A stretch of 64,000 nt of DNA, taken from NCBI GenBank assembly GCA_018670095.1, contig JABHRR010000040.1:7331-71330 (forward strand), given 5' to 3'. Source of the stretch: Candidatus Woesearchaeota archaeon. GTDB lineage: Archaea > Nanobdellota > Nanobdellia > Woesearchaeales > GW2011-AR9. This document shows, in pieces, positions 3,058 through 22,039 of this stretch. The stretch's first letter is position 1. Each line of letters begins with the position of its first letter. The notes under the pieces are model-generated. The model was not told where the DNA came from. It ran no database searches and worked only from the letters and a program-made list of their open reading frames with translations. A program made the translations under genes and the position numbers.

Positions 3058-3879
3058 ATGGCTTTAAGAAAATCAGACAAATTAAGAGAATCAATCCTTA
3101 CTCTTCCACCAATTAGTAAAACATATTATTTTTTAGCTTGGTTAATCAGCGATGCCTACATTCTCTCCTATCCTAGAAGTGGTAGAACTTGGTTAAAAGT
3201 AATGCTAAATAAAATGTTATCATTAAAATATAATTTAAAAAAAGACAATATTTATTTATATCGAAAAACATTATTCTCAAAAGCCCCAAATATTGTTAGT
3301 GAACATCCATTCGAGCCAGACTATCCTACTATATATCCATATCCAAAAATGAAAGTGGGAAAAAAGTTTAAAAAGAAAAAAATAATCCTCCTTTTTAGAG
3401 ATCCAAGAGATCTCGTGGTGTCTAATTATCATGAATATACAAAAAGGAAAAAAATCTGGCAAGGAGAATTATCACAATTCATTAAAGAACCGTATACATT
3501 ACCTAGAATTATTAAATTTATGAATTTATGGCATGAAGAAACTAAAAAGAGAAAAGATATCCTAATATTAAAGTACGAGCGAACCAAGGAAGATCCTTTT
3601 GGAGAACTAAAGAAAGTTTCAGAATTCTTAGGGATTAACGCCAGTGACGAAATTTTAAAAGAAGCAGTAGAGTATGGATCAATTGAAAACATGAGAAAAT
3701 TAGAGGTAAAAGACCATTTTAAACACGACAAGTTAAGACCCGCTAACCTTGATGATATTAATAGTTATAAAGTAAGAAAAGCTAAAGCAGGAAGCTATAA
3801 AGAAGAATTAAATGAAGAGGATATTGCTTACATGAATCAACAAATTAGTGAAAGGCTGGTAAAAGAAATAGGATATTAA
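3058..3879 (+). CDS. PAPS-dependent sulfotransferase
   Basis: 5'-PSB motif YPRSGRTWLKV and 3'-PB motif RDPRDLVVS, spaced as in the sulfotransferase family. Confidence 0.7.
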   Translation: MALRKSDKLRESILTLPPISKTYYFLAWLISDAYILSYPRSGRTWLKVMLNKMLSLKYNLKKDNIYLYRKTLFSKAPNIVSEHPFEPDYPTIYPYPKMKVGKKFKKKKIILLFRDPRDLVVSNYHEYTKRKKIWQGELSQFIKEPYTLPRIIKFMNLWHEETKKRKDILILKYERTKEDPFGELKKVSEFLGINASDEILKEAVEYGSIENMRKLEVKDHFKHDKLRPANLDDINSYKVRKAKAGSYKEELNEEDIAYMNQQISERLVKEIGY

Positions 3880-4584
3880 TCAGTTGTATGGAAAGAGTTC
3901 TTCTGCTTTCTTTAAGTCTTCAGGAAAGTCTATATCAACAAATGAAGCACCCTCTATATCACGAGCAGTTATCGTTTCTCCATTTTTAATAAGACTGTCA
4001 ATCACTTCTATTAAAGAGGCATTAAGATTAGTCTTTGCGGTTTGATTAAGTTCAGTAATTAGTTTATCCGCCCCAATACTAGAGAATTTTGCAATGCCAA
4101 TAAATTCTCCGTTTTCTTCAACCGTTCTTACTTTGCTGATATTTGTTATTATTCCATCTTTTACCACAACTTTCTCAGCTTCTTCTCTGACTACAATTCT
4201 TTTCTTTTTAATAGATAAACAAATATCCCATTCACTTTCCAATAAATATGTAATTATTTTTGGATCAAACAAAACATCAGAATAAAGGAATATAAAACTT
4301 TCTTTTAACTCTTTTTGGACGAGCCACAAAGCCAGAGCCATCCCTGAAACTTCATAAAAAGGATTAAATAAAGTTTTGATCCCCAGTTCTTCTTTACATT
4401 TTTCTATTTCTTTTGATAAATGGCCAGTGATTACAATAATATCTTCAATGCCCAATTTCTTTAGGTTCTCAACTTGTCTCTCCAAAATTGTTTTGGATCC
4501 TACTTTTAATAAACATTGAGGGGTGTATTTAGTTAGAGGCAATAGTCTTGTTGCTTTTCTTGTTGCTAAAATAATGACTTTCAT
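3880..4584 (-). CDS. LicC/IspD-like nucleotidyltransferase (CDP-alcohol or CMP-phosphonate forming)
   Basis: N-terminal ILATRKATRLLPLTKYTPQCLLKV matches the GxGTRLxPLT loop. The C-terminal FVDIDFPEDLKKAEELF is typical of the LicC/MobA-like NTP_transf_3 family. Co-oriented directly downstream of phnDCE. Confidence 0.6.
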   Translation of the reverse strand: MKVIILATRKATRLLPLTKYTPQCLLKVGSKTILERQVENLKKLGIEDIIVITGHLSKEIEKCKEELGIKTLFNPFYEVSGMALALWLVQKELKESFIFLYSDVLFDPKIITYLLESEWDICLSIKKKRIVVREEAEKVVVKDGIITNISKVRTVEENGEFIGIAKFSSIGADKLITELNQTAKTNLNASLIEVIDSLIKNGETITARDIEGASFVDIDFPEDLKKAEELFPYN

Positions 4585-4676
4585 TTGTTTTGTCCCTAAG
4601 AGTACATATTATATATTTTGTATACTTATTAATTTCTTATATTTCTTAAATCTTTAGGAGTATATTTGCAATTTTA

Positions 4677-5528
4677 TTACAGATCTACTTTTACTATTCT
4701 TTTTCTAATATAAGCGCTGAATCTATCTATGGTCGTAACCATAACAATCATAATAATCAAAATAGTTAAAACTTCTTGATTTTTAAAAAGCCTCATACTT
4801 GTTAATAATTCCATCCCAATACCCCCCGCCCCAACTAAACCTAAAACTGTTGCGGCCCTAAAATTATTTTCAAGGTAGTAAAGTGTATAATTAACAAATA
4901 AAGGTTTAACTTGAGGAAAAATCCCCCTAACAATAACCTGAATTTTGTTTGCCCCTGTTGAAACAACCGCTTTAATCACTTCTTGATCAACAGTTTCTAT
5001 TGCCTCAGAAAAATATCTTCCTAAAGCACCAGTAACATGGGCAGATAACGCTAAAACTCCTGGAAAAGGTCCTAAGCCCACCATAGAAACGAAGATAAGA
5101 CCCCAGATTATTTCGTTTATCCCTCTAAGGCCATCAAATATTGTTCTAACAAAATGGTAAACTAATTTATTGGGCATAATGTTTCTTGCAGCCAGAAAAG
5201 ATAACGGTAAAGCGATCATCGCCCCAATAGTAGACCCAACTATGGCCATTTGTAAAGTTTCAACAGCTTTTTTTAAAAATAAGCTCAAATGGGTTATATC
5301 GGGAGGGAACATTCTTTTAACAAAATCTATCATGAAAGGAATACCTTTAACAAAACCAGTAGGGCTAGTCTGAGTGCCAGCCAGAGCCCAATAATAGATA
5401 ATGGCAACTAATAAACCGATTATTAATCCTTTATATTTCCAAGGAAGTTTAGAGGAAAGTTCAGAGGAAAGTCTGGGCGGAAGTTTAGAGGAAAGTTCAG
5501 ATGAAGATTTAGATTTTGGTATTGTCAT
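4677..5528 (-). CDS. phnE: phosphonate-type ABC transporter permease
   Basis: EAA-like loop EAIETVDQEVIKAVVSTGANKIQVIVRGIFPQV, about 6 TM helices, located next to phnC and phnD. The N-terminal tail holds a tandem peptide repeat. Confidence 0.75.
   Translation of the reverse strand: MTIPKSKSSSELSSKLPPRLSSELSSKLPWKYKGLIIGLLVAIIYYWALAGTQTSPTGFVKGIPFMIDFVKRMFPPDITHLSLFLKKAVETLQMAIVGSTIGAMIALPLSFLAARNIMPNKLVYHFVRTIFDGLRGINEIIWGLIFVSMVGLGPFPGVLALSAHVTGALGRYFSEAIETVDQEVIKAVVSTGANKIQVIVRGIFPQVKPLFVNYTLYYLENNFRAATVLGLVGAGGIGMELLTSMRLFKNQEVLTILIIMIVMVTTIDRFSAYIRKRIVKVDL
5459..5517. repeat. 23-nt perfect direct repeat (ggaagtttagaggaaagttcaga) present twice with a 13-nt spacer, inside the 5' end of phnE
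   Basis: Read directly from the sequence. It encodes the duplicated peptide LSSELSSKLP in the PhnE N-terminal tail. Confidence 0.8.
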
Positions 5529-5530
5529 CT

Positions 5531-6304
5531 TTAAAAACCCGTTTTACCATAAAGGTACCATTCTTTTGTTTTACCATATATTTCTACAATATCTTTTTCG
5601 GTAAGGTCTTCAGATTTTCCGTCAAAGACAATTTTTCCGTTTCTCATTCCAATAATTCTAGCACCATATCTCTTAGCAAAATCAAGAAAATGTAAGCTAG
5701 CAATAAAAGTAATTCCACTTTCAGTACAAATGGTTTGCAACAAATCCATAATTTCTTTCATCAACTTGGGGTCTAAATTAGAAACGGGTTCGTCAGCAAG
5801 AATAATATCTGGTTTTTGGCATAAAGTCCGGGCGATAGCAACTCTTTGTTTTTGCCCCCCACTAAGATTCAGAACTGTTTCATTCTCATAACCTTGTAAT
5901 CCAACTTTTTCAAGGTTTTCTTGTGCCAAAGTATAATCTTCTTTAGAAAATTTTCCAAGTATTGTTTTAAAAGAACTATTAAAACGTAATCTACCATTTA
6001 AAACATTTTTCAAAACGGTCTCATTTTCAGTGAGATTAAAGTTCTGAAAAATCATCCCAATCTTCCCTCTTATTTTTCCTGCCTTTTTTATCGGACCATT
6101 TAAAATATTATCATTTCCAATAAATATATCTCCAGAGCTGGGTTCTATTAAACGATTAATACACTTTAATAATGTTGATTTTCCTGAACCACTAGATCCA
6201 ATAATGACTGCACTTTCATTTTTCTTAAAATGAAGACTAATATCTTTTAGAGCATCTTCGTTTCTATTATTATACCTGTGAACAAGTTTTTCTATTCTAA
6301 TCAT
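5531..6304 (-). CDS. phnC: phosphonate-type ABC transporter ATP-binding protein
   Basis: Walker A GSSGSGKST, Q-loop IGMIFQ, signature LSGGQKQRVAIAR, Walker B IILADEP. Confidence 0.85.
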   Translation of the reverse strand: MIRIEKLVHRYNNRNEDALKDISLHFKKNESAVIIGSSGSGKSTLLKCINRLIEPSSGDIFIGNDNILNGPIKKAGKIRGKIGMIFQNFNLTENETVLKNVLNGRLRFNSSFKTILGKFSKEDYTLAQENLEKVGLQGYENETVLNLSGGQKQRVAIARTLCQKPDIILADEPVSNLDPKLMKEIMDLLQTICTESGITFIASLHFLDFAKRYGARIIGMRNGKIVFDGKSEDLTEKDIVEIYGKTKEWYLYGKTGF

Positions 6305-6365
6305 TTTAATATTCTCAATATTTAAATTAATGGAAAAAATGGATAATAAAAAATAATAAAAAATC

Positions 6366-7280
6366 TTATTTATTAGCTGCCTCTGGATTAGTAACGTCCA
6401 TTCCTAAAATTTTAGCTGTTTCTCTAATTACGTCATAGTCACTGTCATATACTCTTTTATAACGAGAAATCCCGCCCCAGCCATCAACTTTATGGATGGT
6501 TTGTTGATCCATTTTAACTAACGCCAACTGGATTTTTAATTTAATGAGTTTAGGAAGATCTCCTCTAACAGCAATTGGCGAACCGGGAATAGGATCAGAG
6601 GTATAGATAATCTTGTTTACTTGTGGGTCTATTTCTCCTTCTTTTACCATCCTCTTGTATACATTATCACCAGTTGCTCCTGCATCTACTTTGCCATTTG
6701 CAACAGCATACATAACCGCATTATGAGTCCCAGCATAATAACTCGTACTAAAATCGCTATCTGGATCAATTCCGTTCTCAATTAATATTTTTCGAGGAAT
6801 AAGATTTCCAGAGGTAGAAGCAGGATCTACAAAAGCAAAGGATTTCCCTTTTAAATCTGCCAAAGTATTAATTCCGCTATCGACGTTAGTGACAATTACA
6901 GATTTATAAGTTGAACTTCCAGTTTCATCTTTTACGCCATTAACAATTGCTTCTGCCCCAGCAACATTTGCTGCGATAACATATGAAAACGGACCAAACC
7001 AAGCCATATCAATATGTTTATATCGCATTGCTTCAATAGCAGCAGTATAATCAGAAGTCACTTGAATCTCAACAGGAATCCCTAATTCTTTGGATAAGTA
7101 TTCTTTAATGGGTTCATAATTTCTAAGCATTTCATCAGCATCATCAGCAGGAATTAAACCCATTTTCAAAACTTTAATATCGGAAATTGCTCCTCCAGTT
7201 GGGCTTTGAACACCATTACAACCAGCCAGAAATATAACTAAACACAACAACAAACTTAATATTATTTTTTTCATTTTCAT
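6366..7280 (-). CDS. phnD: phosphonate/phosphite-type ABC substrate-binding lipoprotein
   Basis: Signal peptide with lipobox LAGC. The PhnD-like periplasmic binding fold comes first in the phnD-C-E gene order. Confidence 0.7.
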   Translation of the reverse strand: MKMKKIILSLLLCLVIFLAGCNGVQSPTGGAISDIKVLKMGLIPADDADEMLRNYEPIKEYLSKELGIPVEIQVTSDYTAAIEAMRYKHIDMAWFGPFSYVIAANVAGAEAIVNGVKDETGSSTYKSVIVTNVDSGINTLADLKGKSFAFVDPASTSGNLIPRKILIENGIDPDSDFSTSYYAGTHNAVMYAVANGKVDAGATGDNVYKRMVKEGEIDPQVNKIIYTSDPIPGSPIAVRGDLPKLIKLKIQLALVKMDQQTIHKVDGWGGISRYKRVYDSDYDVIRETAKILGMDVTNPEAANK

Positions 7281-7510: not shown

Positions 7511-10306
7511 ATGGTAAAGATAATTACAACAATAGGGACTAGTTCCATTAAACCAGGAGTATTACATAAACTTAAATCTCATCATGTTGATTTTGTCAGA
7601 ATTAATCTCTCTCATACTAAAGAAAAAGATATTGAAAAAAATATTGAACAGTTAAAAAATTCTAAACTGCCAATCATTATTGATACTGAAGGATCAAAAA
7701 TTAGAACGGGACAATTGAAAGAAGATGTTACCATTCTTGTTAAAGATAAAATTATAAAAGTTTTTAAAGGAGAGATTCCAAATGATTGTGAGGATAATAC
7801 TATCGCAATTAAACCAAAAGAAATTTTGGATTATGTTCGCCCTGGAAATTTGATATCTGTTGATTTTGATTCTGTATTACTAAAAGTAACGGATACTTCC
7901 GCATTAAAAGAAGGTGATTATATTACCTGTCAAGTAATTATTGGAGGCCTAGTTGGAAGCAATAAGTCCGTTCATATTGAAGATTTAAAAATTAAATTGC
8001 CACCTTTTAGCCAAAAAGACTTTTTAGCAATTGAACTTGCCAAAAAACACAAAGTAAAGTTTTTCACATTATCTTTTATTGACCATGGTAGGGAAGTTAA
8101 AGCATTCAAAGAGATATACCCTGAATCATTTGTGTACGCAGAAATCGAAACAAGAGCAGGAATCATAAATTTTGAAAGTATTATTAAAGAAAGTGATGGA
8201 ATTATGGTTGATCGAGGCGATCTCAGTAAAGAAATTTCTCTAGAAAAAATACCCTTAGCACAAAAAATAATTATTAAGAGATGTAATCAAGAAAATAAGG
8301 AGGTATTAATTGCTACTAATATTCTTGAAAGTATGTGTAATTCTCTTAAACCAACCAGAGCAGAAGTAAATGATGTTATCAACACGATTCTAGACGGAGC
8401 TACGGGATTAGTGTTAACAAAAGAAACCGCCATTGGAAACTATCCGTTGGAGACAATAAATATGCTCCATAACCTTATTCAACACGCCAGTTTTGCATTA
8501 AATTCAACAAAAATCAATGAAGCACTTACAGAAAAGAAAGCAAGTAAAACGTTGTTAGAATTAGATTATATCACAAACCCTTACATCACAGATTCATTAA
8601 ATCCTCCTCATGGGGGCAGGTTAGTAAATCAGGTAATGGATGAAAGTGAAATTAAAAAGTACGATTTGCTCACAATGAAAAAATTGGAAGTAAATGAAAC
8701 TACATTAATAGATGCTGAACAAATAGCTATTGGGACTTATAGTCCTTTAGAAGGGTTTATGGTAAAAGAAGATTTCGTCTCCGTTTTAAATAATATGAGA
8801 CTAAAGAACGGCGTCATTTGGCCAGTCCCAATATATTTACAAATAAAAGAGAAAGTGGTGGCAGATTTTTTTCCGAAAGAAAATATCTTATTAATATCAA
8901 AAAAAGATAAGGAAGCGTATGCAATTCTTCATTTAAAAGAGATATACCCACTAAATTTACAAGAGACAGCACTTAAACTTTTTGGAACCACGGACGAAGA
9001 ACATCCCGGGGTGAAAAATTTATTTACACAAGGCAATTTTTTTTTAGGGGGGAAAATAAGTTTAATTAAAAAGTTACCTTCCTCACATAAACACCATGAA
9101 TTAACGCCAAAACAAACCAGAAAGATATTTCAAGAGAAAGGCTGGAAAAGAATTGTTGGTTTTCTTTCTCACAATGCAATCCATCGATCTCATGAGATAA
9201 TCCAATTAGAAGGCATAGAAATGGGTGAATGTGATGGTTTATTTGTCCATCCAATGGTGGGAAAGAAAAAAGAAGGTGACTTTAGAACCGAGATTGTTAT
9301 TAAGAGTTATGAGCTAATGATGGAAAAGTTTTATCCACAAAATGTCATCTTTAGTACGTTTTTGATATACTCTCGCTGGTGCGGTCCCCGAGAAGCAGTT
9401 TTTAGTGCAATATGTAAGAAAAACTTTGGTTGCAGTCATTTTATTGTGGGTAGAGACCACGCTGGAGTTGGTGGCTTCTATGGCCCAAAAGAAGCCCATA
9501 ACATATTTAATAAATTTCCTAATTTGGGGATTGAACCTGTTTGTTTTAATGACATTTTTTATTCAAAAAAAGAAGGAAAGCACATTGAAGATAATCCAGA
9601 AAACAATAAAGAAAACCAAAAAGAGGAAAACAAATCCACAATAAGTGGAACCATTGTAAGAAAAATGTTAAAATCTGGTCAACAACCACCAGCATGGTTA
9701 ATGCGGCCCGAAATTTCTGAAATGATTATCAATTGCATTAATCAAGGAGAAGAAGTATTTTACGAAGAAGATCAGAAAAAGTGTAAAGTCCTCTGGTTTA
9801 CTGGGTTATCTGGATCTGGAAAGACAACTCTAGCTTTAGAACTTAAAAAAAAACTTGAAGAGTTAGGAAAAAAAGTAGAAATTCTTGATGGAGATATTGT
9901 TAGAGGTACGATAAACAAGCACCTAGGTTTTTCAAGAGAAGATATTAGAGAAAATAATAAAATAATGGCAGGATTAGCAAAAGAAAAAATGAAAGATTCT
10001 GATTTTGTTCTTGTTCCAAAAATATCCCCTTACAAAGAAGACAGGGAAAAAACGCAATTTCTTATTGGCGATAACTTCCTGGAATTATTTATTAATGCCC
10101 CCCTACAAGAATGCATAAAAAGAGATGTAAAAGGCCTATATCAAAAAGCCCTTGCTGGAGAAATCAAAGATTTTGTGGGGATTGCCCAATCTAATCCTTA
10201 CGAAGCCCCTGATAATCCCCATTTAGAAATAAAAACTGATCAACAGTCTTTAGAAGAAAGTGTAACAACTATATTAGATTTTTTAAAAAGCCGTCAATTA
10301 TTTTAA
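7511..10306 (+). CDS. tri-domain protein: pyruvate-kinase-like domain + sulfate adenylyltransferase (ATP sulfurylase) + adenylylsulfate kinase
   Basis: Residues 1-330 match the PK barrel (INLSHTKEKD, IIIDTEGSKIRTG, MVDRGDLSKEISLEKIPLAQK, PTRAEVNDVINTILDGATGLVLTKETAIG). The middle region has the HRSHE and GRDHAG motifs of ATP sulfurylase. The C-terminus has GLSGSGKTT, LDGDIVRG and KISPY of APS kinase (CysC). Confidence 0.8.
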   Translation: MVKIITTIGTSSIKPGVLHKLKSHHVDFVRINLSHTKEKDIEKNIEQLKNSKLPIIIDTEGSKIRTGQLKEDVTILVKDKIIKVFKGEIPNDCEDNTIAIKPKEILDYVRPGNLISVDFDSVLLKVTDTSALKEGDYITCQVIIGGLVGSNKSVHIEDLKIKLPPFSQKDFLAIELAKKHKVKFFTLSFIDHGREVKAFKEIYPESFVYAEIETRAGIINFESIIKESDGIMVDRGDLSKEISLEKIPLAQKIIIKRCNQENKEVLIATNILESMCNSLKPTRAEVNDVINTILDGATGLVLTKETAIGNYPLETINMLHNLIQHASFALNSTKINEALTEKKASKTLLELDYITNPYITDSLNPPHGGRLVNQVMDESEIKKYDLLTMKKLEVNETTLIDAEQIAIGTYSPLEGFMVKEDFVSVLNNMRLKNGVIWPVPIYLQIKEKVVADFFPKENILLISKKDKEAYAILHLKEIYPLNLQETALKLFGTTDEEHPGVKNLFTQGNFFLGGKISLIKKLPSSHKHHELTPKQTRKIFQEKGWKRIVGFLSHNAIHRSHEIIQLEGIEMGECDGLFVHPMVGKKKEGDFRTEIVIKSYELMMEKFYPQNVIFSTFLIYSRWCGPREAVFSAICKKNFGCSHFIVGRDHAGVGGFYGPKEAHNIFNKFPNLGIEPVCFNDIFYSKKEGKHIEDNPENNKENQKEENKSTISGTIVRKMLKSGQQPPAWLMRPEISEMIINCINQGEEVFYEEDQKKCKVLWFTGLSGSGKTTLALELKKKLEELGKKVEILDGDIVRGTINKHLGFSREDIRENNKIMAGLAKEKMKDSDFVLVPKISPYKEDREKTQFLIGDNFLELFINAPLQECIKRDVKGLYQKALAGEIKDFVGIAQSNPYEAPDNPHLEIKTDQQSLEESVTTILDFLKSRQLF

Positions 10307-10322: not shown

Positions 10323-11015
10323 ATGGATGATATCAACAAAGAAAAATACCAAAAGAATGGAATTATTGGTGTCTTAACTAGAAAGTTCATTTCAACCAAA
10401 ATTAGTTCTCTTTTAGCTAAAACTCGATTAACTCCAAATCAAATAACATTATTTTCATTAATTATTGGATTAATTGGAATTTATTTCTTGTCTACAGGAG
10501 AACGAACAAATTTAATTGTAGCTGGAATATTAATCTTCTTCTCAAAGATATTTGATGCGGTTGATGGGGAGTTAGCAAGACTTAAAAGAATGGAAACTCC
10601 TCGCGGAGCTTGGATTGACGGAATTTCTGATCGCTTTAAAGAAAATTTAATTTTCTTGGGGGTTGCAATTGCCCTCTATAGACAAACAGGAGATGTTTAT
10701 GTCTGGCTTTATGCTTTCATTGCTGTAATTTCGATACATATGTTATCCATAGTACTAGAACACACAGGAATGATGGATAAAAACGCATTAAAGAATACGC
10801 AAGAAGATTTTTGGATGGTAAGATTTGCGAAAAAGATAGGCATTCGTCCACAATTCCTTGCTTTGCAAGCCGACACTTATTTGTTTATTATTTACGTTAG
10901 TATAATCCTCAACCAATTAATGTTTATTCTCTGGTTTTTTATGGTTGTGATGAATTTATATTGGATAGTAATAGTTATTCTAGTATTTATTAAAAAAGGT
11001 GAAGAAGAAAAATGA
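10323..11015 (+). CDS. CDP-alcohol phosphatidyltransferase family membrane protein
   Basis: Motif DAVDGELARLKRMETPRGAWIDGISDRF fits D-G-x2-A-R-x8-G-x3-D-x3-D. Several TM helices. Its stop overlaps the start of the next gene. Confidence 0.75.
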   Translation: MDDINKEKYQKNGIIGVLTRKFISTKISSLLAKTRLTPNQITLFSLIIGLIGIYFLSTGERTNLIVAGILIFFSKIFDAVDGELARLKRMETPRGAWIDGISDRFKENLIFLGVAIALYRQTGDVYVWLYAFIAVISIHMLSIVLEHTGMMDKNALKNTQEDFWMVRFAKKIGIRPQFLALQADTYLFIIYVSIILNQLMFILWFFMVVMNLYWIVIVILVFIKKGEEEK

Positions 11016-12070: not shown

Positions 12071-13510
12071 ATGCAATTTAAAAATACTCCAGAAAACATC
12101 ATGCAAATCATTGAACTATTTCATAATCAGGGATTAAAATATAATTTGTTCAAATGTGAACATATCTTTGCAGGAAACAATGAGAATTTAGACATTCTTT
12201 TTGCAACTAAAGAAGATTACAATAAAGCATCTTCATTGTTAAAAGAAAATGGTTTCATCATTTATATGTCTGAAAAAGTAGAGAAATATAAAAAGATGTA
12301 TTTAAAACTAAACAATGGAACATTAACAAAAATCCATTTGCATCGAGAAATTGCTTGGAATGGAGTAAAAGTTCTTGATGAAAATAATATTTTTGCAAGA
12401 CAAGTAGAATTAAATAAAATGATTTATTTCCCTTCACCAGAAGATTCCATTCTGATTCACATTGCGCACATTTTATTTGAGAATTTTACGATTGGGCCTA
12501 AAGAAGTTAAATATATCGCTGCATGCTTAATAGAAAAAAATAACAAAAAAGGAAGTGAAATAAATTATAGATATATTAACAAACAATTAAACCAATTTGG
12601 TTGGAAAAAAGAATTCTATTATTTATTTAATAAGTTTAACAAAAATAAAGTGGAAGTTGGAAAAAAGGTTTCTTTTACAATGATTATTAAAAGTTATTTT
12701 AAAGCAATCCTAAAACAACCATTAATAATCCCTCACCTAACCAAAAGAGTAATTAAACTAATTGGAAACAAAATATCATTAAAAAGAAAAGGGACATTAA
12801 TCGCTTTAATTGGAGTTAATGGTTCTGGTAAAACAACGACTACCGAATTATTAAAAGAAGAACTTAAACTGTTAGCAACATTCTTTCATGTTCCCATTGA
12901 GGGATACTACTTTGGATGGCGTCCATTCTCACCAATAGCAAAACTATTATCAAGAATCATGAAGAAGAAGAAAACATTCAAGAAAATCGCTGAACAAGAG
13001 GGTATAACAAAGAAAGAGGAAAAAGAAAATGAGAAGAAGGGAAAGAAATTAAGTATGTTCCAGGAGGGTTTGTTTTTATACAATTTCATGGAATATTTAT
13101 TAAGGTATTGGATTCAAATTTATCCGAAGTTGAGAAAGAGAGAGATAATTATTACTGATAGATACTTTTACGATATTTATGGGCAGTATCCGTATGCTGA
13201 GAAAAGTATACTTATCAAAAATTTAATGAAGTTATTTCCAAAACCTGATAAAACTTTTATTCTTGATGCAGATATTGAAACTATTATGAAAAGAGGGAAA
13301 ACAAATAAAGAATATGAAACTACTAAGACAAAACTAAAAGAAGAAAGAAAAATCAAATCTAAAAATTATTTAGAAGGGCAAAGAAAAAGATATAAAGAAA
13401 TAAACAAAATCATCAAGTCAATTATTATTACTACAGAAGAAGATAAGATAGAAACGACAAGAAAAATTACAAACAAAATTTGGAAACTTAGTGTTAAAAA
13501 AAGTCTTTAA
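12071..13510 (+). CDS. two-domain protein of unknown function: N-terminal conserved domain + thymidylate-kinase-like P-loop kinase domain
   Basis: Walker A GVNGSGKTTT and DRY motif (IIITDRYFYD) in the C-terminal half. The N-terminal 240 aa is a paralog of the N-terminus of the 33692..35041 protein (shared ...DYxKxxxxLxENGF... and ...W.gV..LDE..I...). Confidence 0.5.
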   Translation: MQFKNTPENIMQIIELFHNQGLKYNLFKCEHIFAGNNENLDILFATKEDYNKASSLLKENGFIIYMSEKVEKYKKMYLKLNNGTLTKIHLHREIAWNGVKVLDENNIFARQVELNKMIYFPSPEDSILIHIAHILFENFTIGPKEVKYIAACLIEKNNKKGSEINYRYINKQLNQFGWKKEFYYLFNKFNKNKVEVGKKVSFTMIIKSYFKAILKQPLIIPHLTKRVIKLIGNKISLKRKGTLIALIGVNGSGKTTTTELLKEELKLLATFFHVPIEGYYFGWRPFSPIAKLLSRIMKKKKTFKKIAEQEGITKKEEKENEKKGKKLSMFQEGLFLYNFMEYLLRYWIQIYPKLRKREIIITDRYFYDIYGQYPYAEKSILIKNLMKLFPKPDKTFILDADIETIMKRGKTNKEYETTKTKLKEERKIKSKNYLEGQRKRYKEINKIIKSIIITTEEDKIETTRKITNKIWKLSVKKSL

Positions 13511-17506: not shown

Positions 17507-19123
17507 TCACTCATCCCCTTTATTAAAAAACTCTTTAATGGAAGAGGAAATGTATCTTAAATCTTCCTCATTTAATGTCACTGACATAGGTAAAGTTAAT
17601 ACTCTTCCAGACAATTCTTCTGTTAGCGGCAGATCCCCTTCTTTAAAACCATAGTTTCTTTTGTACAAAGTTTTTAAGTGTACCGGATTAAAATAAACCT
17701 TGCTCATAATCCCTTTACTCTCCAAGAAAAATTGAAGTTGGTCCCTTACTTGTTTATTAGGTAAAGTTATAGTGTACATTTGATAAATATGATTAAAACC
17801 AACCAAAGGCAAAGGACACTTTACCCCAGGGGTCATAGACAATTCTCGATTTAAAAAAGTAGCTTTCTTTTTCCTCTCATTAATCATAAAGTTTATTTTT
17901 CTCAATTGAGAAAGCCCTAATGCGGCATTCATTGTTGGCATTCTAAAATTAAAACCAACTTTTAAATAATCACAATCTTTAATAGAAGAGAAATAATCCC
18001 CCTCCACTTCCTCTATTCTTCCTAAAGAACGTAACAATTTCATTCTTTCATATAATTTTGGATTCTCAGTAACAATAACTCCCCCCTCACCACAGGAAAT
18101 AATTTTATTCTGACAAAAACTAAACATAGCAGCAGTACCAAATGTCCCAACTTTTTTCCCATTAACATCTGCCCCTAAAGATTCAGCGGCATCGTCTAAT
18201 AATAAAAGATTATTATCATTACAAAGGCGTGCTAACTTCTCAATATCACGACAAGCACAACCACCATAATGGATAGGTATAACTGCTTTTGTTTTAGAGG
18301 TTATTTTTTTTCTAACATCTTCTGCATCTAATCCAAAAGTCTCTGATTCGCATTCTGCAAAAACTGGGATACCTCCCGCAAGAATAACTGCGTTAGCAGT
18401 AGCAATAAATGTAAACGAAGGAACAATCACTTCTTTCCCTTTTACATCACAAGCTAAAAGAAGCGTGTGTAATGCTGAAGTTCCAGAATTAAAAGTTAAA
18501 GCATATTTTGTCCCCACAAATTTAGCAAGTTCATATTCAAACTCTTGGATTTCTGGCCCTACAGCCCAATTAGTTCCTCTTTTAATAACCTTAGCTATTG
18601 CTTCAATATCATCTTTGTCGGAATATGTTTTAAAAAATGGCATTTTCCATTTTTTAGTTTCACTAATTGGGTCACTAGAACTTAGTATCTTGTCAACTTC
18701 ATATTCTTCACCCACTCGCCTCTCATCAAGACATTTAATTACTTTAGCCGGAATACCATAAGCAACAACATTATCAGGAAGATCTTTGTTAACGAAAGAA
18801 TGAGCCCCAATAGTTGTGTTCTCCCCTATTGTAACATTGGGCATGATAGTACAATGAGTGCCTACACAAGCATTTTTTTTAATAATTACTTTTCCTTTTT
18901 TATTATCGATAGTAGAAACTGAGTAAATGGAACAATGACTACCAATCTGAACATTATCACCAATTTCAACGTATTCTTTAGCATTGATATAAGTAAATGC
19001 ACCAATATCAACAGATTGTCCCAATGATAATTTATCAGGATGTTGAACTAACCAATTCCACTTTGTAAGTTTATTATGTTCAATTATTGGAGTCTCCCAA
19101 TTTTCAAAACGTTCTTTTTCCAT
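17507..19123 (-). CDS. fusion: left-handed beta-helix (hexapeptide) N-acetyltransferase + DegT/DnrJ/EryC1 PLP aminotransferase
   Basis: N-terminal hexapeptide repeats (IGDNVQIGSHCSIY, IGENTTIGAHSFV). C-terminal DegT fold with the PLP-lysine motif MFSFCQNKIISCGEGG. Confidence 0.75.
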   Translation of the reverse strand: MEKERFENWETPIIEHNKLTKWNWLVQHPDKLSLGQSVDIGAFTYINAKEYVEIGDNVQIGSHCSIYSVSTIDNKKGKVIIKKNACVGTHCTIMPNVTIGENTTIGAHSFVNKDLPDNVVAYGIPAKVIKCLDERRVGEEYEVDKILSSSDPISETKKWKMPFFKTYSDKDDIEAIAKVIKRGTNWAVGPEIQEFEYELAKFVGTKYALTFNSGTSALHTLLLACDVKGKEVIVPSFTFIATANAVILAGGIPVFAECESETFGLDAEDVRKKITSKTKAVIPIHYGGCACRDIEKLARLCNDNNLLLLDDAAESLGADVNGKKVGTFGTAAMFSFCQNKIISCGEGGVIVTENPKLYERMKLLRSLGRIEEVEGDYFSSIKDCDYLKVGFNFRMPTMNAALGLSQLRKINFMINERKKKATFLNRELSMTPGVKCPLPLVGFNHIYQMYTITLPNKQVRDQLQFFLESKGIMSKVYFNPVHLKTLYKRNYGFKEGDLPLTEELSGRVLTLPMSVTLNEEDLRYISSSIKEFFNKGDE

Positions 19124-19990: not shown

Positions 19991-22039
19991 TCAAGTTAAC
20001 CTTTTAAACCCGACATTTGCTACCGGTCCTTCCAAAAGTTGATGAACGTTATTGTTCGCTATTGATTTACTTATGATTGTAAATACTTTATCAACAGCAA
20101 TCAAATAATTATCCACTATATCCTCTGTGTGACAATAAGACACATAAACACTTTTAGTAGTTAAATATCCTAATTTAAGCATTTCTTGTGTAAACAAAGT
20201 ATGTAAAGCATGACTATCTTTATGCTGAATAATAAATGTGGTTAATGGTCTAATACCCACAACTTTGACATCAATATTATGCTTAGTTGCTAATTTTCCC
20301 CAACCTTCACTAATTCTATCACCTATCTTAATCAAATGCTCAAAAACATTATTTTCTGCCATCTTTTTAATTGTAGTTAAAGCTGCAACAAAACCAACAC
20401 GATCTGTCCAGTAAGTACTAGTTATAAAACTCTCTTGTGCAATGTCCATTATATTCTTTTTACCAATAATTGTAGCCATTGGAAACCCGTTACTTATCCC
20501 TTTAGCATAAACAACAATATCTGGTTCAAGCCCATATTTCTGGTAGGCACCTCCCAACATTATTCTCCAACCTGAAGTAATCTCATCAAGAATTAAAACT
20601 GCACCAGTTTCTCTAACAATTTTTTGAACACCCATTAAAAATTCAGGAGTAGGTTCTTTGTGACGGATAGTTTCTAATACAATTACACCAATATCATTTT
20701 CTGTGACAATTCTTTTTAAATGTAACAAATCATTATATTCGAATGGAATTGCTGTACCTTTCAATGAACGTGGAACCCCCAATGGTTTTAAACCCGGCAA
20801 CAAATGTCCATCAAGATTTTTATCATCAGCTAGATTAGCTGCAAGATACCAATCATGCCACCCATGATAACCACAAAAAGCAACTTTATCTTTTTTTGTA
20901 TAAGCACGAGCAATTCTAACTGCAACAGACATAGCTTCTCCACCAGTTTTTGCAAATTTAACATATCCTGCCCAAGGATGCATATTTAACAATAATTCAG
21001 CTAATTCAACTTCTTCAGGACAATTTAATGTGGTCATAGAACCATCATCAATGCATTTTTTAACTGCGTCATTTACATCATCATCAGCAAAACCTAAAAT
21101 ACATGTTCCAATACCCATATATGTCATATCAATAAATTTATTATCATCTAAATCCCAAACTTCCACGCCTTTTGCTTTTTTAAAATAAGCTGGCCATTGA
21201 TTTGGCAAAAACATCTCAGGACGTTTAGAAAGTAACTGACAACCACCAGGGATCATAGATTTAGCTTTCTCCCAAAGTTTAATCCCCTTATCAATTTTGT
21301 TTGTTTGATAATATTTTGATTTCATTAAAGCTTCAATCACAACCATATCCATTTCCTCATCAATCTCAAACTGCTGATATCTTTTTACGGGATAACCCAT
21401 AGTTAATTGGTGGTAAAATGTTTTTTTTTGTTTAAATGCTTCTACTTCAGAAATATAAACTGTTCCCTCTGGGAAATATACTTCTCCTAAATCCTGCCTT
21501 CTTTTAGCATGAGAACTATCCCCCCCTAATTCAATTCCTAATCCTGCACCCAGAGGTTTTATCAAACCGTCAGCATGAAAAGTCATAGTAAATTCCGGAT
21601 GCGAAGACTCTGGTTGAGCAACGCCAACAATAGATTCTGCTTTCTCATTTGAATCTAACATTTCAAGGGCACAATCAATATCTTCTGCTTTTCTCAGAGG
21701 AGAAGTAGGATCAAGTTGAATAATATAATCATAATGTTCACCTGATTTTTCACAGAAATCAAGGGCATGTAGCAAAACATCAGCAGAAGTTGCAGTATCA
21801 GTGGCCAAATAAGAAGGCCTCATAAAAGGAACATCACCACCGCAGTTCTTTGCGACCAGTGCTATTTCTTCATCATCAGTTGAGAGAATAACTCTGTCAA
21901 CATACATTGATTTCTGACCTGCTTCTATACTCCAAGCAACCATAGGTTTACCCGCAATAATTTTTATATTTTTCCTTGGAAAACCTTTACTTCCACCACG
22001 TGCAGGAATTACGCCCAAAACTTTTTTGTTGTTTATCAT
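19991..22039 (-). CDS. fusion: CMP-nonulosonic acid synthetase (NeuA/PseF-like cytidylyltransferase) + class-III (glutamate-1-semialdehyde aminomutase-like) aminotransferase
   Basis: N-terminal IPARGGSKGFPRKN. C-terminal KFAKTGGEAMSVAVRIARAYT and the PLP-lysine region DIVVYAKGISNGFP. Confidence 0.75.
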   Translation of the reverse strand: MINNKKVLGVIPARGGSKGFPRKNIKIIAGKPMVAWSIEAGQKSMYVDRVILSTDDEEIALVAKNCGGDVPFMRPSYLATDTATSADVLLHALDFCEKSGEHYDYIIQLDPTSPLRKAEDIDCALEMLDSNEKAESIVGVAQPESSHPEFTMTFHADGLIKPLGAGLGIELGGDSSHAKRRQDLGEVYFPEGTVYISEVEAFKQKKTFYHQLTMGYPVKRYQQFEIDEEMDMVVIEALMKSKYYQTNKIDKGIKLWEKAKSMIPGGCQLLSKRPEMFLPNQWPAYFKKAKGVEVWDLDDNKFIDMTYMGIGTCILGFADDDVNDAVKKCIDDGSMTTLNCPEEVELAELLLNMHPWAGYVKFAKTGGEAMSVAVRIARAYTKKDKVAFCGYHGWHDWYLAANLADDKNLDGHLLPGLKPLGVPRSLKGTAIPFEYNDLLHLKRIVTENDIGVIVLETIRHKEPTPEFLMGVQKIVRETGAVLILDEITSGWRIMLGGAYQKYGLEPDIVVYAKGISNGFPMATIIGKKNIMDIAQESFITSTYWTDRVGFVAALTTIKKMAENNVFEHLIKIGDRISEGWGKLATKHNIDVKVVGIRPLTTFIIQHKDSHALHTLFTQEMLKLGYLTTKSVYVSYCHTEDIVDNYLIAVDKVFTIISKSIANNNVHQLLEGPVANVGFKRLT

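What the first reader, a model, noticed from the sequence alone, without database searches (positions are those of the whole stretch)
7511..10306. Single-polypeptide PAPS synthase with an N-terminal pyruvate-kinase-like domain (PK + ATP sulfurylase + APS kinase)
ATP sulfurylase/APS kinase fusions are well known, but I do not know of a characterised example carrying an N-terminal pyruvate-kinase barrel. The domain looks complete and potentially catalytic: it has INLSHTK, DTEGSKIRTG, MVDRGDLS and TRAEVNDV...DGATGLVLTKETAIG. PAPS synthesis uses two ATP per sulfate and is thermodynamically uphill, so a PEP-driven local ATP-regenerating domain fused to the pathway would make mechanistic sense. The gene sits 3.6 kb from a sulfotransferase inside a glycan cluster, which implies dedicated PAPS supply for glycan sulfation.
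Basis: partly seen in the sequence, partly recalled or inferred. Interest (0 to 1): 0.72.

Follow-up and report, generated by a model that had tools for sequence, protein, structure and literature searches.

The report
Pyruvate-kinase-fused PAPS synthase, altered active sites
This archaeal gene really does join a pyruvate-kinase-like domain to the two enzymes that make the sulfate donor PAPS, as in a large unstudied family found beside glycan sulfotransferases, but this copy has lost the lysine that pyruvate kinases need for catalysis, so its kinase domain probably no longer regenerates ATP.

Summary
Bases 7511..10306 (+) are one unbroken 931-aa ORF with four domains: PK barrel (A+B, no C domain), PUA-like, ATP sulfurylase and APS kinase. 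It is not an artefact. More than 190 database proteins share the PK-ATP sulfurylase fusion. They come from CPR bacteria and DPANN archaea, and also from Mesorhizobium amorphae and a Rhodospirillales MAG. The genes usually lie beside sulfotransferases in glycan clusters. No paper describing the fusion was found.

In 187 of 187 other family members the PK phosphoryl-transfer lysine (PKM K270) is conserved. Here, and in the three closest relatives (Candidatus Nanoarchaeia), it is Glu (E211). The sulfate-binding QXRN motif of the sulfurylase is LSHN. The PK domain is still under normal purifying selection.

All readable loci of this small clade also carry phosphonate genes: PhnCDE import here, and a PEP-mutase cassette in the relatives.

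Most likely the protein supplies PAPS to the sulfotransferase at 3058..3879, with a PK-like domain that is retained but catalytically altered. ATP regeneration from PEP is plausible for the family at large and doubtful for this copy. I rate it a new variant of a known kind, interest about 0.58.

The parts
7511..10306 (+). Whole gene: PK-like / PUA-like / ATP sulfurylase / APS kinase fusion, 931 aa
   Evidence: ORF; domains; AlphaFold2 model
7514..8458 (+). Pyruvate-kinase barrel (A domain with inserted B lid), residues 2-316; the last A-domain helices run to about residue 345; no C-terminal PK_C domain
   Evidence: Pfam PF00224 E 1.3e-68 over the full profile. Aligns to PKM residues 47-406. 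Foldseek match to PKM2 8hmr_C, rmsd 2.6 over 346 columns.
8141..8143 (+). Codon GAA = Glu211, at the position of the PK phosphoryl-transfer lysine (PKM K270)
   Evidence: Alignment to PDB 7r6y. Glu in the query, P0001, P0002 and P0003; Lys in 117/117 and 70/70 other fusions. Codon read.
7697..7699 (+). Codon AAA = Lys63, at the monovalent-cation-site position (rabbit PK residue 117); Gln in the rest of the family
   Evidence: The significance of Glu117 versus Lys117 is taken from PMC4284704.
8501..8590 (+). Flexible interdomain linker, residues about 331-360
   Evidence: 10-residue block means of pLDDT are 50-60 for residues 331-360; the only stretch below 50 is 334-339. No Pfam coverage.
8603..9070 (+). 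PUA-like N-terminal domain of ATP sulfurylase, residues 365-520
   Evidence: PF14306 E 7.4e-45
9098..9730 (+). ATP sulfurylase catalytic domain, residues 530-740; HXXH (HRSH, 558-561) and GRDHAG (647-652) are intact
   Evidence: PF01747 E 2.7e-70. TIGR00339 scores 337.3, above its cut-off of 322.95. 41% identity and TM 0.92 to M. thermolithotrophicus ATPS 8a8d.
9164..9175 (+). Variant QXRN motif: Leu552-Ser553-His554-Asn555 (canonical Q-T-R-N; rest of the fusion family H-T-R-N)
   Evidence: Motif roles are taken from PMC6607087.
9785..10234 (+). APS kinase domain, residues 759-908, with P-loop GLSGSGKT and the DGD motif
   Evidence: PF01583 E 4.8e-47. TIGR00455 scores 183.4, above its cut-off of 138.7. 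Alignment to 5cb6 and 8a8h.
3058..3879 (+). Sulfotransferase (Sulfotransfer_1), the presumed consumer of PAPS; has the PAPS-binding motifs PRSGRTW and RDPRDLVVS
   Evidence: Pfam E 1.3e-28; sequence and PDB matches to cytosolic sulfotransferases
3880..7280 (-). NTP_transferase (3880-4584) plus the phosphonate ABC importer PhnE (4677-5528), PhnC (5531-6304) and PhnD (6366-7280), transcribed divergently from the fusion gene
   Evidence: Pfam. NCBIfam PhnE 297.5, PhnC 300.2 and PhnD 265.1 bits, all above their equivalog cut-offs.
10323..11015 (+). CDP-alcohol phosphotransferase family gene, starting 17 bases after the fusion gene's stop and probably co-transcribed; the same neighbour follows the fusion gene in L001 and L090

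Best explanation
The gene encodes a single-chain sulfate-activation enzyme of a DPANN (Nanoarchaeia-type) archaeon. It belongs to a large, uncharacterised family in which a pyruvate-kinase barrel replaces its own C-terminal regulatory domain with a PUA / ATP sulfurylase module, often followed by APS kinase.

Its most likely job is to supply PAPS to the sulfotransferase of the same surface-glycan cluster. The sulfurylase domain makes APS from ATP and sulfate, and the APS kinase domain phosphorylates it to PAPS. This is inferred from domain scores, intact HXXH, GRDHAG and P-loop motifs, and conserved gene neighbourhood.

In the family at large the PK domain keeps every catalytic residue. There it most plausibly uses PEP to turn the ADP released by APS kinase back into ATP. 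That would relieve the known dead-end E-ADP-APS inhibition and pay for one of the two ATPs. This step is inferred, not shown.

In this protein and its three nearest relatives the PK phosphoryl-transfer lysine is Glu, and the cation-site residue is Lys (Met in P0003). Ordinary PEP-to-ADP phosphoryl transfer is therefore probably lost or greatly reduced. The domain is still under normal purifying selection, and its substrate-binding and metal-binding residues are intact. It is most likely kept as a ligand-binding regulatory or scaffolding module. Precedents are the inactive sulfurylase-like domain of Thiobacillus APS kinase and the APS-kinase-like allosteric domain of fungal sulfurylase. The sulfate pocket of the sulfurylase is also remodelled (LSHN instead of H/Q-T-R-N), with unknown kinetic consequences.
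For: Architecture and completeness.

Family size and spread: at least 120 clusters at 90% identity. 73 of the top 150 representatives at 50% identity are PK+ATPS fusions. Members include CPR, DPANN and Omnitrophota names, and Mesorhizobium amorphae and a Rhodospirillales chromosome with a separate adjacent APS kinase gene.

Sulfotransferase and glycan context: window; L001 and L090; L003, adjacent Sulfotransfer_2; L007, adjacent Sulfotransfer_1; L008 and L012, sulfotransferase immediately upstream. Sulfotransfer_1 is the most frequent family among 76 neighbour ORFs of 8 genome loci. The window's sulfotransferase has PAPS-binding motifs.

Benefit of ATP regeneration: PMC9885120.

Loss of the catalytic Lys: alignment to PKM. 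Glu in 4 sequences against Lys in 117 plus 70 others. The K220A PykA mutant was among catalytic-site mutants reported to dramatically inhibit or abolish activity (PMC9009071).

The domain is not decaying. The ratio of PK to ATPS identity within the clade (76/84, 72/84, 69/78 %) matches main-family pairs of equal divergence (74.6 +/- 7.1 at 80-90 %; 61.3 +/- 6.0 at 70-80 %). R30, N32, S34, D58, T59, R65, K152, E213, D237, T269 and E305 are all kept.

The APS kinase and sulfurylase pass curated NCBIfam cut-offs.
Against: No activity has been measured for any member of the family. The sulfate-contacting Gln and Arg of QXRN are replaced (L552, H554), and R522 is Leu, so APS synthesis from sulfate is not assured. 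If the sulfurylase were inactive, the adjacent sulfotransferase would lack a PAPS source in such a small genome. Lys63 at the cation site could partly compensate for the missing Lys211, so residual or altered PK activity cannot be excluded; P0003, however, has Met there. I did not identify a sulfate transporter, a PAP phosphatase or a pyrophosphatase in the window. That overview listed only 25 of 48 families, so it is incomplete. A regulatory or scaffold role is an argument by analogy only.
Confidence: 0.5

Rival explanations
1. All three activities work, and the PK domain uses PEP to regenerate ATP locally, driving PAPS synthesis with only catalytic ADP.
For: Apart from K270, the PK substrate and metal residues are all present, and the domain is under purifying selection. 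Lys63 places a positive charge at the cation site, as in natural K+-independent PKs (PMC4284704). ATP regeneration by PK/PEP is needed for PAPS synthesis in vitro. This is the likely mechanism for the 187 family members that keep the lysine.
Against: Glu replaces the lysine assigned to phosphoryl transfer. K220A in B. subtilis PykA was among the catalytic mutations reported to dramatically inhibit or abolish activity. By my own recollection, not checked here, K240M in yeast PK lowers kcat about 1000-fold (Bollenbach 1999, which is cited in that paper). Natural K+-independent PKs keep K270 in addition to K117. P0003 has Met, not Lys, at position 63.
Confidence: 0.2
2. The Nanoarchaeia clade is neofunctionalised. 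The remodelled, less basic and more hydrophobic anion pocket of the sulfurylase-like domain activates something other than sulfate, for example a phosphonate such as 2-AEP or 2-HEP, or another oxyanion. The remodelled PK-like phosphoryl subsite binds a different ligand. The product feeds phosphonate-linked decoration of the glycan.
For: The clade-specific changes fall on anion-contacting positions in both domains: PK K211E, Q63K and P10 lost; ATPS H552L, T553S, R554H, R522L, T651A and Y623W. Each is fixed in all 4 members, or 3 of 4, while the ATPS domain is the best-conserved part of the protein within the clade (74-90 %). Every readable locus of the clade carries phosphonate genes next to the fusion gene. 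The window has PhnCDE above equivalog cut-offs plus a nucleotidyltransferase. L001, L090 and L091 have a PEP mutase-cytidylyltransferase fusion, a TPP decarboxylase, Fe-ADH and a radical SAM gene. L002 has Fe-ADH at the contig end. Main-family loci examined show no PEP mutase.
Against: The window, L001 and L090 are syntenic close relatives, so the phosphonate association is essentially one evolutionary event plus a weak hint from L002. The loci already contain a cytidylyltransferase and a CDP-alcohol phosphotransferase that can attach a phosphonate without any adenylyl route. The APS kinase domain and the PAPS-type sulfotransferase look ordinary and need APS and PAPS. No ATP-sulfurylase-fold enzyme acting on phosphonates is known to me.
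Confidence: 0.12
3. The PK domain is simply the organism's glycolytic pyruvate kinase, fused by chance or for co-expression to sulfate-activation enzymes, with no functional coupling.
For: The PK active site is invariant across the family even where the sulfurylase-like motifs look degenerate, for example Thauera sp. 27 WP_002941406.1, which is annotated as pyruvate kinase. JGI names several members 'pyruvate kinase'.
Against: The genes sit in glycan and sulfotransferase clusters, not with glycolytic genes. The fusion occurs in Mesorhizobium and Thauera; I assume, without having checked, that these also have ordinary PKs. In this protein the catalytic Lys is missing, so it cannot be the housekeeping enzyme.
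Confidence: 0.05
4. Artefact: two or three adjacent genes joined by a sequencing or assembly frameshift.
For: None beyond prior suspicion of very long multi-domain ORFs in metagenome assemblies.
Against: The frame is unbroken. The same fusion appears in more than 190 proteins from independent projects and in isolate genomes. A fragment with 100 % amino-acid identity to residues 1-139 occurs in a separate JGI metagenome (L087). The model shows a confident linker-plus-domains arrangement.
Confidence: 0.01

Closest known systems
Bifunctional ATP sulfurylase / APS kinase of Aquifex aeolicus (PDB 2gks; NCBIfam NF004040)
   Same: Same order of PUA-like, sulfurylase and APS kinase domains in one chain. 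It is the best Foldseek match to the model (E 1e-48). NF004040 aligns over residues 375-928.
   Different: It has no N-terminal PK domain. The query scores 434.8 bits, below the 669-bit equivalog cut-off. Aquifex has the canonical QTRN motif where the query has LSHN.
ATP sulfurylase and APS kinase of Methanothermococcus thermolithotrophicus (PDB 8a8d, 8a8h)
   Same: 8a8d is the closest solved relative of the sulfurylase domain (E 4e-96, 41 % identity, TM 0.92). 8a8h is the second-best solved match of the kinase domain (E 6e-39). The HXXH and GRDHAG motifs are shared.
   Different: They are separate proteins with no PK domain and a canonical QTRN motif.
Canonical pyruvate kinase (PKM, PykF, PykA; PF00224 + PF02887)
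   Same: A (beta/alpha)8 barrel with the B lid. The residues R73, N75, S77, D113, T114, R120, K207, E272, D296, T328 and E364 are all present.
   Different: It lacks the C-terminal allosteric and tetramerisation domain. The phosphoryl-transfer Lys270 is Glu, and position 117 is Lys. It scores below the TIGR01064 cut-off (278.8 against 306.4).
Hexameric APS kinase of Thiobacillus denitrificans with an inactive sulfurylase-like domain (PDB 3cr8), and fungal ATP sulfurylase with an APS-kinase-like allosteric domain (PDB 1i2d, 1m8p)
   Same: They are precedents, within sulfate-activation enzymes, for a fused domain that has lost catalysis and serves in assembly or regulation. All appear among the structural matches.
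   Different: The degenerate domain there is sulfurylase-like or kinase-like, not PK-like.
Metazoan PAPS synthases PAPSS1 and PAPSS2
   Same: One polypeptide makes PAPS. The APS kinase is inhibited through an E-ADP-APS dead-end complex that PK/PEP relieves in vitro (PMC9885120).
   Different: The domain order is reversed (kinase first) and there is no PK domain. Sequence similarity is weaker (E about 1e-24 to 1e-35).

Membership tests
Pyruvate kinase (EC 2.7.1.40; PF00224 + PF02887; TIGR01064) | PK (beta/alpha)8 barrel with inserted B domain | tested here: met
   PF00224 E 1.3e-68, profile 4-328 of 328. Foldseek to PKM2 gives rmsd 2.6 over 346 columns.
Pyruvate kinase (EC 2.7.1.40; PF00224 + PF02887; TIGR01064) | Phosphoryl-transfer lysine (PKM K270, B. 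subtilis K220, yeast K240) | tested here: not met
   Glu211 (GAA at 8141-8143) aligns with K270. Lys is found in 187 of 187 other fusion proteins.
Pyruvate kinase (EC 2.7.1.40; PF00224 + PF02887; TIGR01064) | Divalent-metal and substrate ligands (R73, R120, K207, E272, D296, T328, E364) | tested here: met
   R30, R65, K152, E213, D237, T269 and E305 are present and invariant in the family.
Pyruvate kinase (EC 2.7.1.40; PF00224 + PF02887; TIGR01064) | C-terminal PK_C regulatory domain, and the curated whole-protein score | tested here: not met
   No PF02887 hit. TIGR01064 scores 278.8, below its cut-off of 306.4.
Pyruvate kinase (EC 2.7.1.40; PF00224 + PF02887; TIGR01064) | PEP + ADP -> pyruvate + ATP activity | not testable with these tools
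   Needs an enzyme assay.
ATP sulfurylase / sulfate adenylyltransferase (PF14306 + PF01747; TIGR00339) | Domain pair and curated score | tested here: met
   TIGR00339 scores 337.3 (cut-off 322.95) and NF003166 scores 402.5 (cut-off 387).
ATP sulfurylase / sulfate adenylyltransferase (PF14306 + PF01747; TIGR00339) | QXRN motif (Gln and Arg contact the sulfate) | tested here: not met
   LSHN at 552-555; only the Asn is kept. The motif definition is from PMC6607087.
ATP sulfurylase / sulfate adenylyltransferase (PF14306 + PF01747; TIGR00339) | HXXH and (V)GRDHAG motifs | tested here: met
   HRSH at 558-561 and GRDHAG at 647-652.
APS kinase (PF01583; TIGR00455) | Curated score, P-loop GxxGxGK(T/S) and DGD motif | tested here: met
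   TIGR00455 scores 183.4 (cut-off 138.7). GLSGSGKT at 765-772 and DGD at 793-795.
Bifunctional Sat/CysC (NCBIfam NF004040) | Equivalog score cut-off | tested here: not met
   434.8 bits against a cut-off of 669. The domain order does match.
PK-ATP sulfurylase fusion family (uncharacterised; defined here from database members) | N-terminal PK barrel directly followed by PUA_2 and ATP-sulfurylase in one ORF, with APS kinase fused or adjacent | tested here: met
PK-ATP sulfurylase fusion family (uncharacterised; defined here from database members) | Family-invariant PK Lys, and the H-T-R-N form of the QXRN motif | tested here: not met
   The query clade has Glu and L/I-S-H-N.

The most novel reading that the evidence does not exclude
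The four-member Nanoarchaeia clade that includes this gene is a re-tooled version of the PK-PAPS-synthase fusion. Its sulfurylase-like domain (LSHN pocket, fewer basic and more hydrophobic residues) would adenylylate a phosphonate or another less-charged oxyanion instead of, or as well as, sulfate. Its PK-like domain (Lys to Glu) would have switched from PEP-driven ATP regeneration to binding or transforming a different ligand. This would tie the enzyme to the phosphonate import or biosynthesis genes that always flank it. It would be the first ATP-sulfurylase-fold enzyme with a non-group-VI anion substrate, and the first natural PK-fold domain working without the catalytic lysine.
Probability: 0.1. 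Interest if true: 0.85.

Novelty: new variant of a known kind. Interest (0 to 1): 0.58.

Why it matters
1. Sulfate activation is thermodynamically uphill, and APS kinase is choked by its own ADP. A natural fusion to a PEP-driven ATP regenerator would be a compact solution in energy-poor, small-genome CPR and DPANN organisms. It would also be a ready-made template for one-enzyme PAPS production in biocatalysis.

2. The family is widespread but, as far as I could find, undescribed. It occurs in cultured Mesorhizobium amorphae, and in a variant form in Thauera, so it is experimentally tractable.

3. Metagenomic surveys count 'sat' as sulfur cycling and 'pyruvate kinase' as glycolytic ATP gain in CPR and DPANN genomes (for example PMC8091004 and PMC12361377). 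A fused PK-Sat-CysC gene in glycan clusters could inflate both inferences.

4. This particular copy shows that the PK module can lose its catalytic lysine and still be conserved. That points to a second, non-catalytic or altered role, and to a possible link with phosphonate decoration of archaeal surfaces.

Tried and rejected
- **Frameshift or assembly artefact:** rejected. The frame is unbroken and many independent homologues share the fusion.
- **Second PK, sulfurylase or APS kinase gene in the window:** none found by tblastn.
- **Relaxed selection on the PK domain in the Glu clade:** rejected. The PK/ATPS identity ratios equal those of the main family.
- **Host identification from RNA genes:** no Rfam hits and no tRNAs in 64 kb. 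The host was instead inferred from a named member of the P0002 cluster (Candidatus Nanoarchaeia) and from archaeal-type NCBIfam hits of neighbouring genes.
- **More members of the Glu clade:** the metagenome scan returned only an identical fragment and distant hits. The genome scan was saturated by ordinary sulfurylases because the patterns chosen lay in that domain.
- **Literature:** six full-text searches were aimed at a description of the fusion or its taxa. None described it. One search yielded only the paper on in-vitro PK/PEP ATP regeneration. The other hits used PK only as a coupling enzyme or listed sat and PK separately.
- **PFR motif of fungal sulfurylases:** it is absent here, but it is also absent from the active Thermus enzyme, so I did not use it as evidence.
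- **The shifted Arg in the APS kinase 'GFSxEDIREN' segment:** it is family-wide, so it is not specific to this protein.
- **Distances in the model:** the structure tool returns no coordinates, so the E211-K63 distance could not be measured.


Full report
**What is there**

Bases 7511..10306 on the + strand form one ATG-to-stop ORF of 931 codons. Pfam finds four domains in order:
- a pyruvate-kinase barrel, residues 2-316, E 1.3e-68, covering profile positions 4-328 of 328;
- a PUA-like domain, residues 365-520;
- an ATP-sulfurylase catalytic domain, residues 530-740, E 2.7e-70;
- an APS-kinase domain, residues 759-908, E 4.8e-47.

There is no hit to the C-terminal domain of pyruvate kinase (PK_C). 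NCBIfam agrees. The sulfurylase part passes TIGR00339 (337.3 against 322.95) and NF003166. The kinase part passes TIGR00455 (183.4 against 138.7). The PK part falls just short of TIGR01064 (278.8 against 306.4), and the match covers only positions 3-353 of that 476-position model.

An AlphaFold2 model built on 27 family members has mean pLDDT 85.5 and pTM 0.70. Its only weak stretch is the linker at residues 331-360, with pLDDT below 50 only at 334-339. Foldseek matches the Aquifex bifunctional Sat/CysC (2gks), the M. thermolithotrophicus sulfurylase (8a8d, TM 0.92) and PKM2 (rmsd 2.6 over 346 columns).

**It is not an artefact, and it is not rare**

A search of the 90 %-clustered protein collection returned at least 120 clusters at 40-76 % identity with the same Pfam content. 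Most are 900-950 aa with all four domains. A second set of about 735 aa lacks the APS kinase. Source names include Paceibacterota, Yanofskybacteria, Doudnabacteria, Sungbacteria and Falkowbacteria (all CPR), Woesearchaeota and Nanoarchaeota (DPANN), and Omnitrophota. Databases call them 'sulfate adenylyltransferase' or 'pyruvate kinase'.

An exhaustive HMMER scan of representatives at 50 % identity shows that 73 of the best 150 are PK + sulfurylase fusions, and only three of those carry the APS kinase. The core invention is therefore the PK-sulfurylase fusion.

A scan of species-representative genomes found the fusion in Mesorhizobium amorphae NBRC 102496 and in a closed Rhodospirillales MAG chromosome. 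In both, a 726-aa PK-PUA-sulfurylase gene is followed directly by a separate APS kinase gene. The fusion also appears in Methylococcaceae, Planctomycetaceae and Longimicrobiales MAGs.

**Gene neighbourhood**

- **This window.** The gene lies in a large glycan-biosynthesis island. Glycosyltransferases, DegT aminotransferases, NeuB, flippases and sugar dehydratases fill most of the 64 kb. A Sulfotransfer_1 gene lies at 3058..3879. It has the PAPS-binding motifs PRSGRTW and RDPRDLVVS and matches cytosolic sulfotransferase structures.
- **Other lineages.** The link to sulfotransferases recurs. A Paceibacterota locus has an adjacent Sulfotransfer_2. A Woesearchaeota locus has an adjacent Sulfotransfer_1. 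Two further loci have a sulfotransferase immediately upstream. Sulfotransfer_1 is the most frequent family among 76 neighbour ORFs of eight genome loci, alongside NeuB, Wzy_C, glycosyltransferases and one inositol-monophosphatase-family protein, the family that includes the CysQ PAP phosphatases.

**The PK domain of this protein is not intact**

HMMER alignment to human PKM (7r6y) places query Glu211 opposite Lys270 of the I-S-K-I-E-N strand. Glu213 and Asp237 align with the metal ligands Glu272 and Asp296. The 26-residue spacing from that position to the RGD aspartate matches. The codon is GAA at 8141-8143.

In a MAFFT alignment of the query with the 120 close homologues, this column is Lys in 117 sequences. 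It is Glu in exactly four: the query, P0001, P0002 and P0003, at 67-76 % identity to the query. Among 71 more distant fusion representatives it is Lys in 70 of 70 aligned.

The equivalent lysine of B. subtilis PykA (K220) is assigned to phosphoryl transfer. The K220A mutant was among the catalytic-site mutations reported to dramatically inhibit or abolish activity (PMC9009071). From my own knowledge, not checked here, K240M in yeast PK lowers kcat about a thousand-fold.

Two further clade-specific changes lie in the PK domain:
- Gln63 of the family becomes Lys, or Met in P0003. This is rabbit-PK position 117, where Glu marks K+-dependent and Lys marks K+-independent enzymes (PMC4284704).
- The Pro of the G-P turn after strand 1 is lost.

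All other catalytic and binding residues are kept.

The domain is not decaying. Within the clade the PK domain is 66-76 % identical where the sulfurylase domain is 74-84 %. That is the same ratio as in main-family pairs of equal divergence.

**The sulfurylase anion pocket is also altered**

The four conserved sulfurylase motifs are QXRN, HXXH, VGRDHAG and PFR. The Gln and Arg of QXRN contact the sulfate (PMC6607087). The query keeps HRSH and GRDHAG but reads L-S-H-N where solved enzymes read Q-T-R-N. The rest of the fusion family reads H-T-R-N in 117 of 117 sequences. The four clade members read L/I-S-H-N.

Other fixed clade-specific changes in this domain are R522L, Y623W, R636K and T651A. 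The pocket is therefore less basic and more hydrophobic. Yet the sulfurylase domain is the most conserved part of the protein within the clade.

The APS kinase domain looks ordinary. Its one oddity, a shifted Arg in GFSxEDIREN, is family-wide.

**A second pattern in the wider family**

About 17 of the 71 distant representatives keep a perfect PK site but appear to have degenerate QXRN, HXXH and GRDHAG columns. The alignment is less certain there. One of them is 'pyruvate kinase [Thauera sp. 27]', WP_002941406.1. Across the family, then, the PK site is the constant and the sulfurylase module is sometimes a relic. The query clade is the only case found where the reverse holds.

**Phosphonate genes flank the clade's copies**

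- **This window.** The gene is divergently transcribed from an ABC importer whose three parts each exceed the NCBIfam equivalog cut-offs for PhnC, PhnE and PhnD. A nucleotidyltransferase follows.
- **The closest relatives.** In P0001 (locus L001) and the P0002 cluster (loci L090 and L091), the flanks are syntenic: GT4, GT4 and sulfotransferase upstream; CDP-alcohol phosphotransferase, GT1 and a thymidylate-kinase-like gene downstream. The transporter block, however, is replaced by a phosphonate biosynthesis cassette: a cytidylyltransferase-PEP mutase fusion, a TPP decarboxylase, an Fe-alcohol dehydrogenase and a radical SAM gene.
- **P0003.** Its short contig ends in an Fe-ADH gene.

The simplest reading is that the same glycan receives both sulfate and a phosphonate, which is either imported or made. 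Because these loci are close relatives, the association is essentially a single evolutionary observation.

**Host**

No rRNA or tRNA gene lies in the window. A member of the P0002 cluster is named Candidatus Nanoarchaeia. The nearest main-family relative is from a Woesearchaeota MAG. Neighbouring genes give archaeal-type NCBIfam hits. A JGI metagenome contig encodes the first 139 residues at 100 % amino-acid identity.

**How it most likely works**

- **Shown:** the architecture, the family membership, the sulfotransferase context and the substitutions.
- **Inferred:** the sulfurylase and APS kinase domains make PAPS for the cluster's sulfotransferase.
- **For the family at large:** the intact PK domain most plausibly recycles ADP with PEP. 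PAPSS1 needs exactly such a PK/PEP system in vitro to escape the dead-end E-ADP-APS complex (PMC9885120).
- **For this protein:** the Lys to Glu change makes ordinary PK catalysis unlikely. The conserved, otherwise intact domain is best explained as a retained ligand-binding regulatory or scaffolding module. Degenerate domains in other sulfate-activation enzymes (3cr8, 1i2d) are precedents.
- **Rivals:** a still-active PK, with Lys63 compensating; neofunctionalisation towards phosphonate-linked chemistry; a merely co-fused housekeeping PK; an artefact (excluded).

**Novelty**

Six full-text searches aimed at the fusion or its taxa found no description of a PK-sulfurylase fusion. Surveys of CPR and DPANN genomes report 'sat' and 'pyruvate kinase' as separate markers. 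The proteins are in public databases under generic names.

I rate this a new variant of a known kind: a PAPS synthase with an added PK module. The specific copy is an atypical member of that family.

Noticed in passing
window 3880-7280 (-) compared with L001 3886-9768 and L090 4515-9740: In otherwise syntenic loci, the window carries a nucleotidyltransferase plus a PhnCDE phosphonate importer. Its relatives instead carry a phosphonate biosynthesis cassette: a cytidylyltransferase-PEP mutase fusion like Fom1, a TPP decarboxylase, Fe-ADH, radical SAM/SPASM, and HIT in L001 only. It looks like a swap between importing and making the phosphonate for one glycan decoration.
   Followed up: partly
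window 3880-4584 (-), 10323-11015 (+), and one ORF somewhere in 22-64 kb: The nucleotidyltransferase and the CDP-alcohol phosphotransferase match the two halves of the Thermococcales bifunctional inositol-1-phosphate cytidylyltransferase / CDP-inositol transferase (74 and 66 bits, both below its cut-off). A myo-inositol-1-phosphate synthase domain is present elsewhere in the window. The pair might therefore handle inositol phosphate rather than a phosphonate.
   Followed up: no
window 12071-13510 (+); also L001 14683-16083, L090 14759-16153, L014 15114-16463: A 479-aa protein combines an uncharacterised nucleotidyltransferase domain (NTP_transf_5) with a thymidylate-kinase-like domain. Its counterpart two genes downstream of the fusion gene in the relatives shows only a faint Thymidylate_kin hit. 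A stand-alone NTP_transf_5 protein also lies near the Mesorhizobium fusion gene, next to a PqqD-domain protein.
   Followed up: no
P0176 / P0287 (Thauera sp. 27, WP_002941406.1) and about 16 other representatives: These family members have a fully conserved PK active site, but their sulfurylase-like domain appears to have lost QXRN, HXXH and GRDHAG. They may be a PK with a relic sulfurylase module in place of its C domain.
   Followed up: partly
window 19991-22039 (-) and 17507-19123 (-): Two further unusual fusions lie in the glycan island. One joins a PseF-like cytidylyltransferase to a class-III aminotransferase resembling glutamate-1-semialdehyde aminomutase. The other joins a hexapeptide acetyltransferase to a DegT-type aminotransferase.
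   Followed up: no
window 6366-7280 (-): The PhnD-type binding protein also gives a strong but sub-threshold hit to the 'putative selenate ABC transporter substrate-binding protein' model (TIGR04553, 175.7 bits against a cut-off of 250). Its ligand could therefore be another oxyanion.
   Followed up: no
window 1-64000: There are no tRNA, rRNA or other Rfam matches in 64 kb. GC content is about 30 %. Nearly every ORF looked at is a glycan-biosynthesis gene, an unusually large share for a presumably small DPANN genome.
   Followed up: partly
L087 1271-1687 (JGI metagenome contig Ga0209249_1041094): A 1.7-kb contig from an independent JGI metagenome encodes residues 1-139 of the fusion protein at 100 % amino-acid identity, so the same or a near-identical organism was sampled there.
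   Followed up: no
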